DNA of 64,000 nt, from the NCBI GenBank assembly GCA_030059665.1, contig JANVYR010000001.1, forward strand, positions 32,001 through 96,000. The letters are read 5' to 3'. Below the pieces are notes generated by a model that ran no database searches, had not been told where the DNA came from, and worked only from the letters and a program-made list of their open reading frames with translations. Both the position numbers and the translations under genes were made by a program. The DNA comes from Candidatus Calditenuis fumarioli. GTDB taxonomy: Archaea > Thermoproteota > Nitrososphaeria_A > Caldarchaeales > Calditenuaceae. This document shows positions 55,951 to 61,809 of the stretch, in pieces. Position 1 is the first letter of the stretch. The number at the start of each line of letters is the position of its first letter.

Positions 55951-57414
55951 TCAAGGAGCCCTCCTTTTCGGTGACAGCAGCTGCAAGATGAACGCTCCCT
56001 GCCCCGCAGCCAGCAACGCGCCGAAGGTCAGCAGAGCAGCAACGCCCTCGGAGCCGACGGGCAACGGATAAGCCCTGCGGGGCGCGCCGAGGGAACCCAT
56101 GAAGGCCATCGTGTAGAGGAGCCCGAGGGCCGCGACGGCCGTGAGCACTATGTGGGCGTATGCCAGCTTCGGGTTCTCCGGCCTCCCGAAGAGCAGCCTG
56201 TAGCTGTGGTAGAGCGCACCGATCCAGATCAGGGTCACGGCGATCAGGATCGTCATCAGGTGGGCCGTGGCCGCGTAGGTCCCGTGAAGCCTGAAGGCCC
56301 ATCCGATCGTGCCGAGCTGCATCGCGAGAAAACCGTCAGCTATGTAGACGCCGAAGCCGAGCATGGCCGCGAGGACCGCAGGCGTCAGCCGCAGGCCGAA
56401 AACGTAGGACGTTGCGAGGACGTTGAAGACGGAGAAGGCCGCACCGAACCCCGTCAGCCAGCTGGCGACCTGTCCCGTGTAGCTAAGCCCCTGGGGCTGG
56501 GAGGTGGGCATCGTGAACAGATGGTGGGGGAAGGCCATGATCGCTGCTGTGGAGTAGAAGACGATCGCGAAGAGCCCGAGCTTCTCGCTGAAGAGCGTCC
56601 TCGCCCTCTGCTCCTCCGAGGCCGTGTAGCGCGGGATCAGCCAGTAAACGGTTCCGAGCGCCATTATCCCCATGGCCTCCATCAGGTTGTGGGCGAATAT
56701 CCAGAACGGGTAGTTGAAGTTCATGGGTGTAAGAGCCCAACCGATGGAACCCAACGGGACGATGCCGACGAGCGCCAGGCCGATCGCGACCGCACCAACT
56801 GTGATCGCCGCACCGAGGGGAGGCAAGATGAAGACGTAAGGGAGCATCCCGGCCATCCCGGAGGGGTTGAGCGTTCCCATGAACCTCTCGAGGACGAGGG
56901 CCTCCTGCGTCTTGCCTCCGAAGACGAGCCGCGCCAGCGCAGCCGGGTAGAGGGCCACCACCACCGCGAGCACGAGAACCACTCCCCAGACGAAGACGGT
57001 CAACCCCTCCATCGACCAGAGGCCTTTGAAGACGCCGACCGCCGGCAGCGGGAACATCAGGGTGTAGCTGGTCCTGACGCCGAGGCCGAGGACAGACGCC
57101 GCTATCATCAGCATCCCCAGGTTCAGCAGGACGTATGATGCCTTGACCAGGAGACCCTTCACCGGTTTGCCGTAGCAGAATCCAGCCCTCAGCAGCGAGA
57201 GGCCCATCATCAGCTGGAAGAGGCCGCCGAAGGTCATGACGGTCCCGTGGAAGGTGAGAAGCGTGTTGTATTCCGGTATCCTCAGCAGACCGGTGGCGTG
57301 GGCCAGGACCATCAGCAGCCCAGCGGTGCCGCCGGCGAGGAACCAAGCCAGCGAGGTCAGCACCATCAGCCTCGGATACCTCGTCAGGTCCTCCAGTTTC
57401 ACGCCGGCCTCCAC
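55951..57414 (-). CDS. Heme-copper oxidase superfamily subunit I, B-family-related, NO-reductase-like active site
   Basis: 12-TM; FHG (helix II), FWIFAHNLME (helix VI), FPHH (helix VII), LHGTY..AHLM (helix X), PRR. Confidence 0.88.
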   Translation of the reverse strand: MEAGVKLEDLTRYPRLMVLTSLAWFLAGGTAGLLMVLAHATGLLRIPEYNTLLTFHGTVMTFGGLFQLMMGLSLLRAGFCYGKPVKGLLVKASYVLLNLGMLMIAASVLGLGVRTSYTLMFPLPAVGVFKGLWSMEGLTVFVWGVVLVLAVVVALYPAALARLVFGGKTQEALVLERFMGTLNPSGMAGMLPYVFILPPLGAAITVGAVAIGLALVGIVPLGSIGWALTPMNFNYPFWIFAHNLMEAMGIMALGTVYWLIPRYTASEEQRARTLFSEKLGLFAIVFYSTAAIMAFPHHLFTMPTSQPQGLSYTGQVASWLTGFGAAFSVFNVLATSYVFGLRLTPAVLAAMLGFGVYIADGFLAMQLGTIGWAFRLHGTYAATAHLMTILIAVTLIWIGALYHSYRLLFGRPENPKLAYAHIVLTAVAALGLLYTMAFMGSLGAPRRAYPLPVGSEGVAALLTFGALLAAGQGAFILQLLSPKRRAP

Positions 57415-57415
57415 G

Positions 57416-57967
57416 TCACACCACCCTGAACTTCGATGCCATCGCGGAGTGGCCGTCGCCGCAGTACTCGAGGCACCTCACCGTGTACTCTCCTGGTTCC
57501 CTCAGCTCGAGGACGATCTCCTCGGTCATACCAGGCATCAGCATGACCGTTGCGAGCAGCTCTCCCTTCGGCGAGTAGACGGCAAACGCGTGGATCGCAT
57601 CGAGGCTCCTGGCGACGAACTTGACGACCCCGGTTCTGAGCTCGTACGCGTCCAGCCTGTAGCCCCACATGAAGGCCTCCACCTGGACGACCTGCGTGGG
57701 CTCCTGTTGCGTCGAAACCGCTGTCTGGGCCTGGATCCAAGGTATCCACTGGATGCTGACCAGGTTGATCGCGGTCCACGTCAAGCCGATCGCTATCAAC
57801 CATACCACCTCCGCGGCCCTGATGAGGCGCTCGTTCTCCCGCAGTCCCTCCGCTGAAGCTCGCTTCCCCCTCCTCACCGAGAGCAGGAACAGCGCGACGA
57901 ATACCACTAGGAAAGGTGCCGTGAGGTAGACGAAGATCAGGACCGCGCCGGCACCTGTGCCCATCAT
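57416..57967 (-). CDS. Heme-copper oxidase subunit II (CuA)
   Basis: Two TM helices; A.MWGY, SLDAIHAF, CLEYCGDGHSAM. Confidence 0.9.
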   Translation of the reverse strand: MMGTGAGAVLIFVYLTAPFLVVFVALFLLSVRRGKRASAEGLRENERLIRAAEVVWLIAIGLTWTAINLVSIQWIPWIQAQTAVSTQQEPTQVVQVEAFMWGYRLDAYELRTGVVKFVARSLDAIHAFAVYSPKGELLATVMLMPGMTEEIVLELREPGEYTVRCLEYCGDGHSAMASKFRVV

Positions 57968-57997: not shown

Positions 57998-58212
57998 CCG
58001 TTATACTGGAATTAGGCTGCAATAAGACCACCAAAAAGGGAACCGCAGCGACGGGCTGTTCGCCTAGGGACCACCACAGAGCGGGCCGGTTAGCTCCACG
58101 AGGAGAGGACGGTCCATCGAGACGGCGCGAGCGGAAAGGTCAGGGACGCGTCTGCTGGGTGGCATCGGTGGGAAGACGCGCGTTAAACGCTTAAATCAAA
58201 TGCGCTGGGGAT

Positions 58213-58788
58213 GTGGGTGTGAGCCTGAACCTGAAGGTGACGACGATAATGAACCGCGACATAGCAGCGGTCGATGCGGACAGCACCGTCGAGGAGGCTG
58301 CGAGGGTGATGGCGTCCCGGAACATCGGTGCTATCGCGGTGAAAAGGGGAGGAGAGATCGTGGGGATCATGACCGAGCGGGACGTTCTGAAGCGCGTGGT
58401 GGCGGCCGGTAGGGATCCGAGGACGACGCGGGTGGAGGAGGTGATGAGCAGCCCTCCGATATCGGTGGACTCGAACGCCACGGTGGGAGAGGCCGTCGAC
58501 CTGATGAACAGGAGGGGAATAAGGAGGGTCTTCGTCAGGGAGGGCGGAAGGATCGTTGGGATCTTCACCCAGCGCGACGTGCTCGCCCTGATGAGGGTCT
58601 GCCTCTACTGCCTCGGGGAGATAATCCGTACGCCCGGCGCTCCGAGCTCAGGCCTCATCGGCTGCAGGTGCGGTGCCCTCTACCACGCAGACTGCGCCAG
58701 AACGGTGGTTTACTGCATCGACTGCGGATCGAAACTGGTCGAGCTCGTCGAGTACACGTCACCTGAAGACACGATGGCTGCCGACTGA
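58213..58788 (+). CDS. CBS-pair protein fused to a C4HC3 (RING/PHD-like) zinc finger
   Basis: Two CBS repeats (GIMTERD, GIFTQRD), then C130-x2-C-x17-C-x-C-x4-H-x2-C-x6-C-x2-C171. Confidence 0.85.
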   Translation: MGVSLNLKVTTIMNRDIAAVDADSTVEEAARVMASRNIGAIAVKRGGEIVGIMTERDVLKRVVAAGRDPRTTRVEEVMSSPPISVDSNATVGEAVDLMNRRGIRRVFVREGGRIVGIFTQRDVLALMRVCLYCLGEIIRTPGAPSSGLIGCRCGALYHADCARTVVYCIDCGSKLVELVEYTSPEDTMAAD

Positions 58789-58799
58789 GGGGGCGATCG

Positions 58800-59600
58800 A
58801 TGGACTTCGAGATCCCCTTCTTTTTCTATCACCAGGGGAGGAGGTTAGCGACCGTCTCGATTGAGCTGATGAGGCCGGTCCGGAACCTCGGAAGGGTGCT
58901 CGACGCGCTTGAAAGTTCAGGCATCTCGGTGCTCGGGCTCACCAGCTGGTTGCCGTCCGGTGACTCGGAGTGCGTGGGCTTCCTGATGGTGGTGGACACG
59001 ACAGGACACGGAAGCGATCCGGGTGAGCTGGTCAGGAAACTCTCCGAGCTCCCTGGGGTCACTAACGTCAGGATCTGGCGCTCCGGGATCGACGGTTTCG
59101 CGGCGATGACGCCGAACGGCTTCCCGACCTTCATCGGCGAACGGGTGTACGTCATGCCATCGGTCGTCTTCAAATCCATCTACCACGCTCTGTACAGGAG
59201 CCACGGAAAGACCCTCTTCGTCATCCTTTACCTCGCAGGAAAGGCAACGGGCGAGAGGGCAGCCGAGCTCAGATCCCTCTTCATGGATCAGGAGGCGGAG
59301 CCACTCGAGTCGCTGGTCGCGATCCTCAAGGTGCTCGGCCCTCCGCTGGGAGTCCTAAGGGACGTCGAACGTTTGGAAACGAATGGAGACGTCACGAGGC
59401 TGATGGTCGAGGATCTGGCGGACTGCGTGGCTCTGAGGGAGCTGAGCCCAAGAGCTCCGACAGGTCACTTCCTCCGCGGGTTCATCGAGGGCTTCATGCG
59501 GTCGCTCGGCGAACCGGTCGAGGTCTTCGAGACGGAGTGCATCAACCTCGGACACCCGAGCTGCGAGTTCGAGCTGAAGCGCACCGGTGTCCACAGCTGA
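58800..59600 (+). CDS. ACT-like + V4R domain ligand-sensing protein
   Basis: N-terminal ACT-like (RNLGRVLDAL..GISV); V4R C-terminus DC..GHFLRGFIEG..ETEC..GHPSCEF. Confidence 0.75.
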   Translation: MDFEIPFFFYHQGRRLATVSIELMRPVRNLGRVLDALESSGISVLGLTSWLPSGDSECVGFLMVVDTTGHGSDPGELVRKLSELPGVTNVRIWRSGIDGFAAMTPNGFPTFIGERVYVMPSVVFKSIYHALYRSHGKTLFVILYLAGKATGERAAELRSLFMDQEAEPLESLVAILKVLGPPLGVLRDVERLETNGDVTRLMVEDLADCVALRELSPRAPTGHFLRGFIEGFMRSLGEPVEVFETECINLGHPSCEFELKRTGVHS

Positions 59601-59654: not shown

Positions 59655-61127
59655 TCAGAACTGATACCTCTCCCTGAGGGCGTGGTACAGGTCGAGGTCC
59701 GAGACCACCTCATCGACCGGTGCGGGGTCGAGCTCCCTCGGATCCGATATGCGGCCGTTGATGGCGGATGCGGCGGCGGTCGCTGGGCTAGCCAGGTGGG
59801 TCCTGGCGTTGGGGCCCTGACGGTGCTCGAAGTTCCTGTTCGACGTCGAGACGCACCTCTTACCCGGCTCAACCCTGTCGCCCGGAGCCATCGCGATGCA
59901 GTAGCTGCATCCGGAGTTCCTCCACTCGAACCCAGCCTCGATCAGCACCCTGTGGATGCCGAGACGCTCCGCCCACCTCTTCGTTACCATCGATCCCGGA
60001 ACGACCACTGCCTTGACCCCTGGAGCCACCCTCCTCCCCTTCACGAGACGGGCCACCTCTATCAGGTCCGAGAGCCTCGCGTTGGTGCACGAGCCGATGA
60101 AGACCACGTCAACGGGCGTCTCCGAGATCTTCTGGCCCGGCCTCAGGCCCATGTACTTCAGAGCCCTCTCCACCGAGACTCTCTGCGCCGGATCGGCGAA
60201 GTCCTCGGGCGATGGCACCTCCTCCGTGACGCCCACCGTCTGGGCCGGGTTGGTGCCCCAGGTGACCTGAGGCTCGATCCGGGAGACGTCGAACTCGTGC
60301 CTCTTGTCGTAGACCGCGTCGTTGTCGGTCCTGAGCTGGGCCCAGTACCTCACCGCCTCCTCCCAGTCCTCGCCCCTCGGTGCCAGCGGCCTCCCCTTCA
60401 GGTACCTGAGCACCTTCTCGTCAGGGGAGATTATCGCGGTCCTCGCGCCCCCCTCGATGGACATGTTGCAGAGGGTCATCCGGTCGTCGACGCTCATCCT
60501 TTCGACCGTCTCGCCGGTGAACTCCATCACGTGCCCGATGCCTCCTCCTGTCCCGATGCTGCGGATCACGTAGAGGATCACGTCCTTGGCAGACACGCCC
60601 TCCCTCATCTGCCCCCTCAGCCTGATCTCCATCTTCTTGGGCTTCTTCAGCCAGAGCGTCTGCGTCGCGAAGACGTGCTCGCCCTCGCTCGTCCCGATCC
60701 CGAAGGCTAGGGCACCGAAGGCGCCGTGGGTGCTGGTGTGGGAGTCGCCGCAGGCCACGGTCAGACCCGGGAGCGTGAGGCCGAGCTCCGGCATGATCAC
60801 GTGAACGATCCCCTGGTAAGGGCTGAAGTAGTCGAACAGCGTTACGCCGAACTCCCTCGCGTTCCTCTTGAGGGCCTCCATCTGGGCCGCCGACATCTCG
60901 TCCGTCACGGGCAGCGTCCTGTCGTAGGTCGGGACGTTGTGGTCCATCACCGCGAAGGTCAGGTCCGGCCTCCTCACCTTCCTCTTAGCGGCCCTCAGCC
61001 CCTCGAAGGCGATCGGAGAGGTGACCTCGTGCGTGTAGTGGCGATCTATGTACAGGAGGGTCATGCCGTCCTCGCGCTCAGCCAGGGCGTGTGCGTCCCA
61101 GATCTTCTCGAAGACCGTCCTTCCCAC
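59655..61127 (-). CDS. leuC: 3-isopropylmalate dehydratase large subunit (bacterial-type)
   Basis: EKIWDAH, IDRHYTHEVTSP.AF, QGIVHV, CGDSHTSTHGA, RMTLCNMSIE, GSCTNAR, CSYC, STSNRNFE. Confidence 0.95.
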   Translation of the reverse strand: MGRTVFEKIWDAHALAEREDGMTLLYIDRHYTHEVTSPIAFEGLRAAKRKVRRPDLTFAVMDHNVPTYDRTLPVTDEMSAAQMEALKRNAREFGVTLFDYFSPYQGIVHVIMPELGLTLPGLTVACGDSHTSTHGAFGALAFGIGTSEGEHVFATQTLWLKKPKKMEIRLRGQMREGVSAKDVILYVIRSIGTGGGIGHVMEFTGETVERMSVDDRMTLCNMSIEGGARTAIISPDEKVLRYLKGRPLAPRGEDWEEAVRYWAQLRTDNDAVYDKRHEFDVSRIEPQVTWGTNPAQTVGVTEEVPSPEDFADPAQRVSVERALKYMGLRPGQKISETPVDVVFIGSCTNARLSDLIEVARLVKGRRVAPGVKAVVVPGSMVTKRWAERLGIHRVLIEAGFEWRNSGCSYCIAMAPGDRVEPGKRCVSTSNRNFEHRQGPNARTHLASPATAAASAINGRISDPRELDPAPVDEVVSDLDLYHALRERYQF

Positions 61128-61191: not shown

Positions 61192-61620
61192 TCAGATCTT
61201 CCGGACAGGCGTCCGCGCGCCGCAGGCCTCGCAGACGAGGAACCTGAACCTCTTCTCCGCGACGATCTGGGTGTCTATCCCTCCGCAGACCGGGCACTTC
61301 ACGAACTCCTTGTAGTAGAGCTGGAGCAGCTTCCCCAGCTCCTGCTCACCTATTTTTCCGTTGATGACGAGCCTCTCTCCCTCGAGCGTTCCGGGCTTAC
61401 CCGTCTCCTTGAAGATGAACCTGGCGAGGTGCTCAGGGTCACGTCCCAAGGCGTCAGCCAGCTGCTTGAAGTTGGTTATCACGGTCCTCCGGTGGTCCTG
61501 GAGCAACGTCGGCCTCAGCGCGATCTCCCTCTCACCACCTCCTGCAGCTCTGCCCTTCAGCTGCGAGTAGAGCCGGTCCAGCAGGGCCACGTACGCTTCC
61601 CGTCCCGAGAGCTCGGTCAA
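61192..61620 (-). CDS. eif2b: Translation initiation factor aIF-2 beta
   Basis: Y..LLDRLY, TVITNF, RDPEHL..FI.KE.G, KCPVCG..DT, CEACGA; start refined to TTG 61620. Confidence 0.93.
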   Translation of the reverse strand: MTELSGREAYVALLDRLYSQLKGRAAGGGEREIALRPTLLQDHRRTVITNFKQLADALGRDPEHLARFIFKETGKPGTLEGERLVINGKIGEQELGKLLQLYYKEFVKCPVCGGIDTQIVAEKRFRFLVCEACGARTPVRKI

Positions 61621-61809
61621 CGGCGACGAGTTGTTGGCAGCCGTATTTGGCTTTGAGCGCACGACGTCCTTTCGCCCTTTGGGAGCCCAGGGATCGCGGA
61701 CAAACCAATTAGCTGGACGGATCGGTCCGGTCCATGGGCGCCCTCTCGTCAGAGGAATCGCATGCGAACCGGTTAAGGGTCCGTCGTCCCGTCCAGGTGC
61801 GGCGCTGAG

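What the first reader, a model, noticed from the sequence alone, without database searches (positions are those of the whole stretch)
58213..58788. CBS-pair fused to a C4HC3 RING/PHD-like finger: candidate adenylate-regulated E3-like adaptor
C-x2-C-x17-C-x-C-x4-H-x2-C-x6-C-x2-C (58600-58725) follows two CBS domains. The H-x2-C-x6-C spacing resembles prokaryotic RING family 1. CBS pairs bind AMP/ADP/ATP/SAM. Aigarchaeota are known to have a eukaryote-like ubiquitin-E1-E2-RING system, so this could couple energy status to substrate ubiquitylation and proteasomal degradation. I know of no described CBS-RING protein.
Basis: inference. Interest (0 to 1): 0.75.

Follow-up and report, generated by a model that had tools for sequence, protein, structure and literature searches.

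The report
CBS sensor fused to RING-like finger
A small archaeal protein joins a nucleotide-sensing CBS pair to a divergent RING-type zinc finger, but relatives occur in genomes where no ubiquitin or E2 was found, so it is more likely a ligand-gated regulator than a ubiquitin ligase.

Summary
The ORF at 58213-58788 (+), with a likely start at 58219, encodes a CBS pair followed at 58600-58725 by the stated C4HC3 motif.

- The finger is a divergent member of the Prok-RING_1/RING superfamily (profile-profile probability 98.2%).
- Its predicted fold matches RING domains almost exclusively.
- The genome carries a Ub-E2-E1 operon 8 kb downstream.

**What argues against an E3 role**
- E2 is near-universal in this order (75/76 genomes), so its co-occurrence with the fusion (26/76) says nothing.
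- Full-length orthologues, with all eight ligands and the conserved tail, occur in four genomes outside the order. No E2 or ubiquitin was found in them, while the positive control scored strongly.
- The positions essential for E2 activation in the validated C. subterraneum RING E3 (Ile, Trp, Arg) are Tyr/Phe/His/Gln, Val/Ile and Gly/Ser here.
- The gene is never in a Ub neighbourhood. In one family it always sits directly upstream of a 2-hydroxyacid dehydrogenase gene.

**Best reading**
This is a nucleotide-gated regulatory adaptor that uses a RING-like finger and an acidic tail as its output. An E3 role remains possible at about 12%. The architecture appears undescribed, and interest is moderate.

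The parts
58191..58196 (+). Possible archaeal TATA-like element (TTAAAT), about 25 nt upstream of GTG 58219; this would give a leaderless or near-leaderless mRNA
   Evidence: Read from the sequence. Inference only, not tested.
58213..58788 (+). CBS-RING gene (191 aa from GTG 58213; probably 189 aa from GTG 58219)
   Evidence: ORF list and translation. Homologues start at the position equivalent to 58219.
58237..58401 (+). CBS motif 1 (about residues 9-63), with the ribose-binding Thr/Asp pair T54/D57
   Evidence: Pfam CBS, two stretches. Alignments to solved CBS pairs. T54, D57 and G51 are invariant.
58432..58593 (+). CBS motif 2 (residues 74-127), with T119/D122 and the invariant R104/R105
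   Evidence: Pfam best stretch 74-127. Invariant columns. Foldseek matches CBS pairs with rmsd 1.2-1.5 A over about 120 columns.
58600..58725 (+). Binuclear C4HC3 RING-like zinc finger (C130...C171), a divergent Prok-RING_1 type with a lengthened first loop (17 residues against 10-13)
   Evidence: hhalign against bona fide Prok-RING_1/zf-RING_2 fingers: probability 98.2%, E 5e-14, all 8 ligands aligned. RING domains dominate the fold searches. Ligand conservation.
58726..58785 (+). C-terminal tail with the conserved motif Y181-x-x-P184-E-[DE]-T187 (58753-58773); low model confidence, probably a disordered docking motif
   Evidence: Y181, P184 and T187 are invariant. The tail is conserved in all full-length orthologues. 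pLDDT is 54-39 over the last 11 residues.
58800..59600 (+). Downstream gene, 12 nt after the stop: a 266-aa protein with a C-terminal V4R domain. Probably co-transcribed, but this pairing was seen only in the window and one of two other loci of its genus examined
   Evidence: Pfam V4R, E 3.2e-10. tblastn over 20 orthologous loci finds it only in L018 and L019.

Best explanation
The gene encodes a small soluble signalling protein made of three parts. (1) A CBS pair (Bateman module) keeps both Thr/Asp ribose-binding pairs and a conserved Arg-Arg, so it most likely binds an adenosine nucleotide such as AMP, ADP or ATP, or a related ligand. (2) A two-zinc, cross-brace RING-like finger descends from the Prok-RING_1 branch of the RING superfamily. 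(3) A short, conserved, acidic and probably disordered tail carries the motif YPxPE[DE]T. The proposed mechanism is that ligand binding in the CBS cleft changes how the finger and tail are presented, or how the protein dimerises. That in turn switches binding to a partner protein, without ubiquitin transfer. In the sister family of the order the likeliest partner is the 2-hydroxyacid dehydrogenase encoded directly downstream. In this genome the partner is unknown; the co-transcribed V4R protein is one candidate. Shown here: the domain identities, ligand conservation, family distribution and gene contexts. Inferred: nucleotide binding, zinc binding, partner binding and independence from ubiquitin.
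For: - CBS pair: Pfam E 4.8e-28; structural matches at rmsd 1.2-1.5 A.
- T54/D57 and T119/D122 are invariant. Thr/Asp pairs mediate AMP binding in archaeal CBS proteins, and an Asp-to-Asn change abolishes it (bioRxiv 10.64898/2026.01.19.700304).
- The finger is homologous to Prok-RING_1 and RING fingers and is predicted to be RING-like.
- Independence from ubiquitin: four genomes outside the order (G417-G420; G417's contig is a 1.96-Mb record titled 'chromosome') encode full-length orthologues with all ligands and the tail. They gave no UQ_con match, no match to this order's own E2 profile (control G026 E 2e-74) and no ubiquitin match (control 1.6e-12).
- E2 is present in 75/76 genomes of the order against 26/76 for the fusion, so the two do not track each other.
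- Gene context is metabolic or stress-related and never Ub-related. A 2-hydroxyacid dehydrogenase lies immediately downstream in 16/16 loci of family f2 and in L017, although the dehydrogenase has diverged to 39% identity. Elsewhere the neighbours are Usp, rhodanese, HSP20 and EamA.
- Fusion of a CBS pair to a small Cys-rich C-terminal domain is a recurring regulatory design: TA0289 (CBS-rubredoxin-like) and CBS-CP12.
Against: - No partner has been identified, and the neighbouring genes differ between lineages.
- The closest domain relatives are RING fingers, whose best-known role is E2 recruitment.
- This genome has a complete Ub/E1/E2 set only 8 kb away and scatters its other RING genes, so lack of linkage is weak evidence here.
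- Completeness of G418-G420 is not reported. Prokaryote-type E2 families were not excluded: the only search, for Prok-E2_B, had no positive control.
- Ligand binding, metal content and oligomeric state are all untested.
Confidence: 0.5

Rival explanations
1. One reading: an adenylate-regulated RING E3, or E3-like adaptor, that recruits the genome's eukaryote-like E2~Ub to substrates according to energy status, at least within this order (a lineage-specific co-option).
For: The finger belongs to the RING superfamily and has a RING-like predicted fold. Ub-E2-E1 lies 8 kb downstream. Every fusion-bearing genome of the order has E2. The validated C. subterraneum srfp is also C4HC3 (PMC3082918). 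A Prok-RING_1-like protein sits beside a Ubl-E2 fusion and a JAB protein in this same genome. A basic residue is common 2-3 positions after the last Cys, as in Prok-RING_1 fingers.
Against: Orthologues occur in four genomes in which no E2 or Ub was found. The equivalents of srfp I30, W58, the Pro after the seventh Cys, and R69 are Y/F/H/Q, V/I, never Pro, and G/S; I30Q, W58A and R69A impair the validated E3 (PMC5654768). The finger falls below Pfam cut-offs, while the srfp-like, membrane-anchored and C. subterraneum RINGs pass zf-RING_2. The distance to E2 ranges from 8 to 128 kb. His is replaced by Met in the C. subterraneum subclade.
Confidence: 0.12
2. A redox or metal sensor. The Cys-rich finger binds Fe or Zn reversibly, like the rubredoxin-like domain of TA0289 or zinc-thiolate redox switches, and combines with the CBS pair to report redox and energy state.
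For: TA0289 is a solved 'CBS-rubredoxin-like protein' in an Fe2+-bound state with the same overall layout (PDB 2QH1 title). The finger has seven invariant Cys. The natural His-to-Met swap in 5 genomes is unusual for a purely structural Zn site. Neighbours include heme-copper oxidase genes here and Usp, rhodanese and HSP20 elsewhere.
Against: The C-terminal domains are not homologous: TA0289 aligns only over the CBS pair (119-121 columns). The finger's relatives are structural-zinc RING fingers.
Confidence: 0.12
3. A ribosome-associated or nucleic-acid-binding factor, related in function to the CBS-domain hibernation factors of archaea, with the finger contacting rRNA.
For: The best solved sequence match of the CBS pair is a CBS-domain protein chain of 9ZNI, the M. 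acetivorans 70S-SriC-SriD complex (E 1.7e-19). The zinc-ribbon ribosomal protein eS27 appears among the fold matches (Z 3.1-4.0).
Against: Sri, Dri and ARC proteins have four tandem CBS domains, and HibA/AHA add an HPF domain; this protein has two CBS domains and no HPF. The CBS similarity is generic. The tail is acidic, and RING matches outnumber and outscore eS27.
Confidence: 0.05

Closest known systems
Prok-RING_1 (PF14446) fingers of the RING superfamily
   Same: The ligand pattern of the second half is identical (C-x-C-G-x2-[YF]-H-x2-C-x6-C-x2-C). hhalign probability is 98.2%. phmmer finds them directly, with E from 8e-13 to 8e-4. The nearest protein-language-model clusters are Prok-RING_1 or zf-RING_2 (a lead only).
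   Different: The first loop is 17-21 residues instead of 10-13. An aromatic or polar residue replaces Ile/Val after the first Cys, and there is no Pro after the seventh Cys. It scores below the Pfam cut-off: no hit for the window finger and E 0.007-0.9 in orthologues. It is fused to a CBS pair and carries a conserved tail.
C. subterraneum small RING finger protein (srfp, CSUB_C1477), an experimentally validated archaeal RING E3
   Same: It is a C4HC3 binuclear finger, shares the 'CGA..H..C' core, and comes from the same archaeal order.
   Different: srfp lies in the Ub-E2-E1 operon, passes zf-RING_2 (39.6 bits), and carries Ile30, Trp58, Pro and Arg69, which are needed for activity. The CBS-fused finger has none of these and is unlinked.
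TA0289-type CBS plus Zn-ribbon/rubredoxin-like proteins (PDB 1PVM, 2QH1; also 3GHD)
   Same: An N-terminal CBS pair followed by a small C-terminal metal-binding Cys domain, in a stand-alone archaeal protein of about 180-190 aa.
   Different: The C-terminal domains are not alignable by sequence or structure. From my own recollection of Proudfoot et al. 2008, not checked here, TA0289 binds one Fe through four Cys; the finger here has eight ligands and RING ancestry.
CBS-CP12 (PDB 5NMU)
   Same: A CBS pair fused to a short Cys-containing regulatory C-terminal module; it is among the best structural matches.
   Different: CP12 is not a zinc finger; the proteins are cyanobacterial; the output domains are not homologous.
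Archaeal CBS-domain ribosome hibernation factors (Sri, Dri, HibA/AHA, ARC)
   Same: CBS modules that sense nucleotides through Thr/Asp pairs. They give the top CBS sequence hit among solved structures.
   Different: They have four CBS domains or an HPF fusion and no zinc finger.

Membership tests
CBS pair (Bateman module) | Two tandem CBS motifs recognised by the family profile | tested here: met
   PF00571, 97.7 bits against a cut-off of 24, two stretches. Foldseek E about 1e-13 to solved CBS pairs.
CBS pair (Bateman module) | Ribose-binding Thr/Asp pair in the G-h-h-T-x-x-D motif of each CBS | tested here: met
   T54/D57 and T119/D122 are present and invariant in the family. The role of these pairs is described.
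CBS pair (Bateman module) | Actual binding of an adenosine-containing ligand | not testable with these tools
   Needs ITC, DSF or a crystal structure.
RING superfamily (binuclear cross-brace treble clef) | Eight metal ligands in four pairs with RING/PHD-compatible spacing | tested here: met
   The C4HC3 motif at residues 130-171. Seven Cys are invariant; His in 22/27 orthologues, Met in 5/27.
RING superfamily (binuclear cross-brace treble clef) | Significant profile similarity to bona fide RING fingers | tested here: met
   hhalign probability 98.2%, E 5e-14, against fingers that pass PF14446 or PF13639. The joint profile hits solved RING-H2 E3s (RNF24 4.8e-5, EL5 1.5e-4). The profile of CBS-fused fingers alone hits no solved RING significantly, so the link is transitive.
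RING superfamily (binuclear cross-brace treble clef) | Cross-brace fold | tested here: met
   By prediction only. In the AF2 model (pLDDT 79.9) the Foldseek top 50 are all RING-type zinc-finger domains, nearly all from E3 ligases. An exhaustive VIA search of 48,161 chains gives a RING as best match (Z 5.4, rmsd 2.6 A, 52 residues), and most of the top 50 are RING, PHD, ZZ or C1 domains. Absolute Z values are low, as expected for a 50-residue domain.
Prok-RING_1 (PF14446) | Score above the curated Pfam cut-off (29.1 bits) | tested here: not met
   No hit for the window finger at E <= 10. Orthologues score 9.9-16.7 bits.
RING-type E3 ubiquitin ligase | A cognate E2, ubiquitin and E1 in the same genome | tested here: met
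   Ub (78 aa), E2 (167 aa) and E1 (394 aa) at G000:C1:98523-100456.
RING-type E3 ubiquitin ligase | The family occurs only where an E2/Ub system exists | tested here: not met
   Orthologues occur in G417-G420 with no UQ_con, no match to the order's E2 profile and no ubiquitin, while the control G026 is strongly positive. Completeness of these genomes is not reported; G417's contig is a 1.96-Mb record titled 'chromosome'.
RING-type E3 ubiquitin ligase | E2-contact and E2~Ub-activating residues (Ile after Cys1, Trp in the helix, Pro after Cys7, Arg/Lys linchpin after Cys8) | tested here: not met
   Y132, V165, I169 and G172 in the window protein. Across the family these are Y/F/H/Q, V/I, never Pro, and G/S; a basic residue is often found at +2 or +3 instead. 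The functional importance of these residues is described.
RING-type E3 ubiquitin ligase | Gene neighbourhood with Ub-system genes | tested here: not met
   The gene lies 8 kb from the operon here, with translation-factor (eIF-5/eIF-2B domain), oxidoreductase, TCA-type and phosphorylase genes in between. The distance is 55-56 kb in G026 and G010 and 128 kb in G297. Immediate neighbours are never Ub-related.
RING-type E3 ubiquitin ligase | E2 binding and stimulation of ubiquitin transfer | not testable with these tools
   Needs biochemistry with the reconstituted cascade.
TA0289-type CBS-Zn-ribbon proteins | C-terminal domain homologous to the TA0289 rubredoxin-like Zn ribbon | tested here: not met
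   phmmer aligns only residues 6-125 to 1PVM and 2QH1. Foldseek aligns 119-121 columns, the CBS pair only. The finger alone finds no such chain.
Sri/Dri/HibA/ARC hibernation factors | Four tandem CBS domains, or CBS plus an HPF/RaiA domain | tested here: not met
   Only two CBS motifs and no other Pfam domain.

The most novel reading that the evidence does not exclude
Within this archaeal order the CBS-RING protein has been recruited as a metabolite-gated E3 or E3 adaptor for the eukaryote-like E2. That would be the first signal-regulated, substrate-selecting ubiquitin ligase outside eukaryotes. It is directly testable, because the genome that appears to be C. subterraneum (G026, a single 1,680,938-bp contig) encodes an orthologue and its E1/E2/Ub cascade has been reconstituted in vitro.
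Probability: 0.12. Interest if true: 0.85.

Novelty: new variant of a known kind. Interest (0 to 1): 0.4.

Why it matters
If the best reading is right, this is a clean natural example of a RING-superfamily finger working outside ubiquitylation. Here it serves as the output module of a metabolite sensor, in archaea both with and without a ubiquitin system. That bears on how RING fingers were recruited into the ubiquitin system before eukaryotes arose. It also adds a third kind of small Cys-rich output domain to the stand-alone CBS sensors, alongside the rubredoxin-like and CP12 types. The family is small and well delimited: only 17 hits among 1.84 billion representative proteins. It has a conserved operon partner in one lineage, so its function should be tractable. 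If the minority reading is right, it would show that regulated E3 specificity predates eukaryotes.

Tried and rejected
- **Complex prediction.** Complex prediction with the genome's E2 (alignment A6) and the finger (A3) scored 0.00, and the tool's verdict was 'no answer'. I do not use it as evidence either way.
- **Expression.** The look-up of sequencing runs listed no RNA holder. The DNA holders were hot-spring and sediment metagenomes, so there is no expression evidence.
- **Prok-E2_B.** A PF14461 search in G417-G420 and G000 found nothing anywhere and had no positive control, so it is uninformative. The other Prok-E2 families were not searched.
- **Finger alone.** Pfam gave only noise, E 0.5-0.9. 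Against PDB sequences only antibody chains appeared, E about 0.7-0.9.
- **V4R neighbour as a conserved partner.** Rejected: among the 20 orthologous loci examined, the V4R gene is present only in the window's own locus and in L018, one other genome of the same genus.
- **Phyletic co-occurrence with E2 inside the order.** Uninformative, because E2 is present in 75/76 genomes.
- **Homology of the C-terminal domain to TA0289.** Rejected.
- **Literature.** Burroughs, Iyer and Aravind 2011 (PMC5938088) is not held, so I could not check whether that survey lists a CBS-RING architecture. The two C. subterraneum papers do not contain the word 'CBS'.
- **Other.** The look-up of encoding contigs for P0010 returned no DNA. 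The search for related loci with A3 failed for lack of a conserved stretch, so A8 was used instead. The 'class' search returned the same 76 genomes as the 'order' search.

Full report
**1. The observation**

The ORF at 58213-58788 (+) is real and encodes 191 residues. Six close homologues (80-91% identical to the window protein) start at the equivalent of the second in-frame GTG (58219), giving 189 aa. A TTAAAT element at 58191-58196 lies about 25 nt upstream of that codon. This fits a leaderless archaeal mRNA, but that is inference.

Pfam finds two CBS domains (E 4.8e-28). The stated motif, C-x2-C-x17-C-x-C-x4-H-x2-C-x6-C-x2-C, occupies residues 130-171, which is nucleotides 58600-58725. All seven cysteines and the only histidine of the protein lie in that stretch.

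**2. What the finger is**

On its own the finger has no significant Pfam or PDB sequence match. I ran an exhaustive phmmer search of residues 122-191 against 1.84 billion representative proteins. It returned only 17 hits, of two kinds:
- CBS-fused homologues (P0010, P0011, P0013, P0014, P0016, and the fragmentary P0015 and P0020).
- Unrelated proteins carrying one to four fingers that pass the Pfam cut-offs for Prok-RING_1 and/or zf-RING_2 (P0024, P0021, P0017, P0009).

The second half of the ligand pattern (C-x-C-G-x2-[YF]-H-x2-C-x6-C-x2-C) is identical in both groups. The CBS-fused fingers differ mainly by a longer first loop.

Several lines tie the finger to the RING superfamily:
- A profile-profile comparison of the two groups gives probability 98.2%, E 5e-14, with all eight ligands in register.
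- A joint profile reaches solved RING-H2 E3 domains (RNF24 4.8e-5, EL5 1.5e-4, Arkadia/RNF165 about 5e-4 to 2.5e-3).
- The CBS-fused profile alone does not reach them, so the link to classical RINGs runs through Prok-RING_1.
- An AlphaFold2 model of the finger (pLDDT 79.9) matches RING-type zinc-finger domains in all of the top 50 Foldseek rows, nearly all of them from E3 ligases (best probability 0.99, TM 0.56-0.61).
- In a Foldseek-independent scan of 48,161 chains the best match is a RING (Z 5.4, rmsd 2.6 A over 52 residues). Most of the top 50 are RING, PHD, ZZ or C1 binuclear treble clefs, with two ribosomal eS27 rows among the exceptions.

The finger is too diverged to pass the family's curated threshold.

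**3. The CBS pair**

The full-length model (pLDDT 82.6) superposes on solved CBS pairs at 1.2-1.5 A. Both CBS motifs keep the Thr/Asp pair (T54/D57 and T119/D122) and an invariant Arg-Arg (R104/R105). Thr/Asp pairs coordinate AMP in archaeal CBS proteins, and an Asp-to-Asn change abolishes binding. Binding of an adenosine nucleotide is thus a reasonable inference, but it is untested.

**4. The ubiquitin system**

The window is G000:C1:32001-96000. A Ub (78 aa), E2 (167 aa) and E1 (394 aa) operon lies at C1:98523-100456, 8 kb downstream of the gene and just outside the window. The genome also encodes:
- two JAB proteins;
- an srfp-like 71-aa RING protein and a membrane-anchored RING protein, both passing zf-RING_2;
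- a second cluster on contig 2, with a Prok-RING_1-like protein, a Ubl-E2 fusion and a JAB protein.

**5. Tests of the E3 hypothesis**

*Phyletic pattern.*
- In the 76 genomes of the order, E2 is found in 75. The fusion is found in 26: genus g1 6/6, g3 1/1 and family f2 18/18, against none of 50 in g2, g4, f3 and f4. Co-occurrence inside the order is therefore uninformative.
- A scan of one genome per species for all prokaryotes found four more full-length orthologues outside the order. Their records are titled uncultured archaeon (two), Nitrosopumilales archaeon and Nitrososphaerales archaeon.
- All four orthologues have the eight ligands and the conserved tail.
- None of the four genomes gave a match to UQ_con, to a profile of this order's own E2, or to ubiquitin. 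The control genome G026 scored 2e-74 for E2 and 1.6e-12 for ubiquitin in those same searches.
- One carrier sits on a 1.96-Mb record titled 'chromosome'. Completeness of the others is not reported, and prokaryote-type E2 families remain unexcluded.

*Key residues.* In the C. subterraneum E3 (srfp), I30Q, W58A and R69A impair ubiquitylation. I located that gene in G026 and aligned it. The equivalent positions in the CBS-fused finger are:
- Y132, which is Y/F/H/Q across the family and never I/V/L;
- V165, which is V/I across the family and never W;
- G172, which is G/S across the family.

The Pro after the seventh Cys is also missing. A basic residue often sits 2-3 positions after the last Cys, as in Prok-RING_1 fingers, so a displaced linchpin cannot be excluded.

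*Linkage.* The gene is 8 kb from E2 here, 55-56 kb in G026 and G010, and 128 kb in G297. Its immediate neighbours are never Ub-related.

*Complex prediction.* The prediction with E2 gave no verdict and is not counted.

**6. Gene context**

- In family f2 (four genera) the gene is always followed, within a few to about 50 nucleotides on the same strand, by a D-isomer-specific 2-hydroxyacid dehydrogenase gene. This holds in 16/16 loci and in the metagenomic L017, even where the dehydrogenase has diverged to 39% identity. That is a conserved gene pair and a candidate functional partner.
- In the window's genus the downstream gene is a V4R-domain protein (the window and L018) or Topo VI-B (L037). 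In genus g3 it is a DAO-type oxidoreductase.
- Elsewhere the neighbours include Usp, rhodanese, EamA, HSP20 and an HflX-like GTPase.
- The window genome keeps a 37%-identical 2-hydroxyacid dehydrogenase on contig 2.

**7. Other conserved features**

- A C-terminal tail, Y-P-x-P-E-[DE]-T-x-x-G, is conserved across the family. It is modelled with low confidence, as expected of a short docking motif. Most members end in Gly and three end in Gly-Gly. The window's genus ends in Ala-Asp.
- In five f2 genomes, including G026, the His ligand is Met.

**8. Interpretation**

The domain identities are secure. Because the family exists where no E2 or ubiquitin was found, lacks the E2-activating residues, and sits in metabolic or stress contexts, I favour one reading. 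It is a ligand-gated regulatory adaptor in which the CBS pair controls presentation of a RING-like protein-binding finger and an acidic tail (confidence 0.5). The rivals are:
- an E3 role in this order (0.12);
- a metal or redox sensor, by analogy with TA0289 (0.12);
- a ribosome-associated role (0.05).

**9. Comparison with known systems, and novelty**

The nearest domain family is Prok-RING_1. The nearest architecture is the TA0289-type CBS plus Zn-ribbon protein, but its C-terminal domain is not homologous. I found no description of a CBS-RING fusion. The two C. subterraneum papers mention only srfp and never use the word 'CBS'. The key survey of prokaryotic RINGs was not available to me. 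I therefore rate this as a new variant of a known kind, of moderate interest.

Noticed in passing
L015:10523-13071 (= G000:C1:98523-101071, starting 2.5 kb beyond the window end): A Ub (78 aa), E2 (167 aa), E1 (394 aa) operon with no adjacent RING or JAB gene. In G026 (L066), by contrast, Rpn11, Ub, E2, E1 and srfp are contiguous. Here the operon is followed by a 187-aa ORF with no Pfam match.
   Followed up: partly
L016:4880-8527 (= G000:C2:190880-194527): A second, divergent cluster: a Prok-RING_1-like 99-aa protein (25 bits, below the cut-off), a 280-aa unknown, a Ubl-E2 fusion (272 aa, UQ_con 30.4 bits) and a JAB protein (205 aa). A second weak UQ_con match of this type was seen only in genomes of the window's genus (5 of 7, counting G000).
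   Followed up: partly
L027, L030, L031, L033, L034 (family f2, genus g5; L031 is in G026): The fifth metal ligand, His, is replaced by Met (Y-M-[QM]-E-C) in five genomes, while all seven Cys are kept. This is unusual for a structural zinc site.
   Followed up: partly
window 58753-58785 and the C-termini of all orthologues: A conserved tail, YPxPE[DE]T, ends in a C-terminal Gly in most orthologues and in Gly-Gly in L028, L029 and L035, but in Ala-Asp in the window's genus. Its meaning is unknown.
   Followed up: no
P0008 (104 aa, metagenomic): A protein whose first 37 or so residues match the N-terminus of the downstream V4R protein and whose remainder is the RING finger and tail. It is either an assembly chimera or a rearranged locus in a relative.
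   Followed up: no
L020-L035 and L017: A strictly conserved gene pair, CBS-RING followed by a 2-hydroxyacid dehydrogenase, across four genera of the sister family. In genus g5 a calcineurin-like metallophosphoesterase lies upstream on the opposite strand.
   Followed up: yes
window 55951-57967 (-): Heme-copper oxidase subunit I (COX1, E 4e-36) and a weak subunit II/cupredoxin-like protein (COX2, E 4e-4, below the cut-off), transcribed divergently from the CBS-RING gene.
   Followed up: partly
L038:1486-2421 (G000:C1, about 817.9 kb) and L066:5355-6128 (G026): Membrane-anchored RING proteins: several hydrophobic segments plus a C-terminal zf-RING_2 finger that has Ile and Pro. The copy in the window's genome also has Trp. 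In G026 this gene lies 1.2 kb downstream of srfp.
   Followed up: no
window 59655-61127 (-) and 61192-61662 (-): An aconitase-family large subunit (E 6e-173), convergent with the V4R gene, followed by a protein with an eIF-5/eIF-2B domain (PF01873; probably aIF2-beta). These are ordinary housekeeping genes between the finding and the Ub operon.
   Followed up: partly
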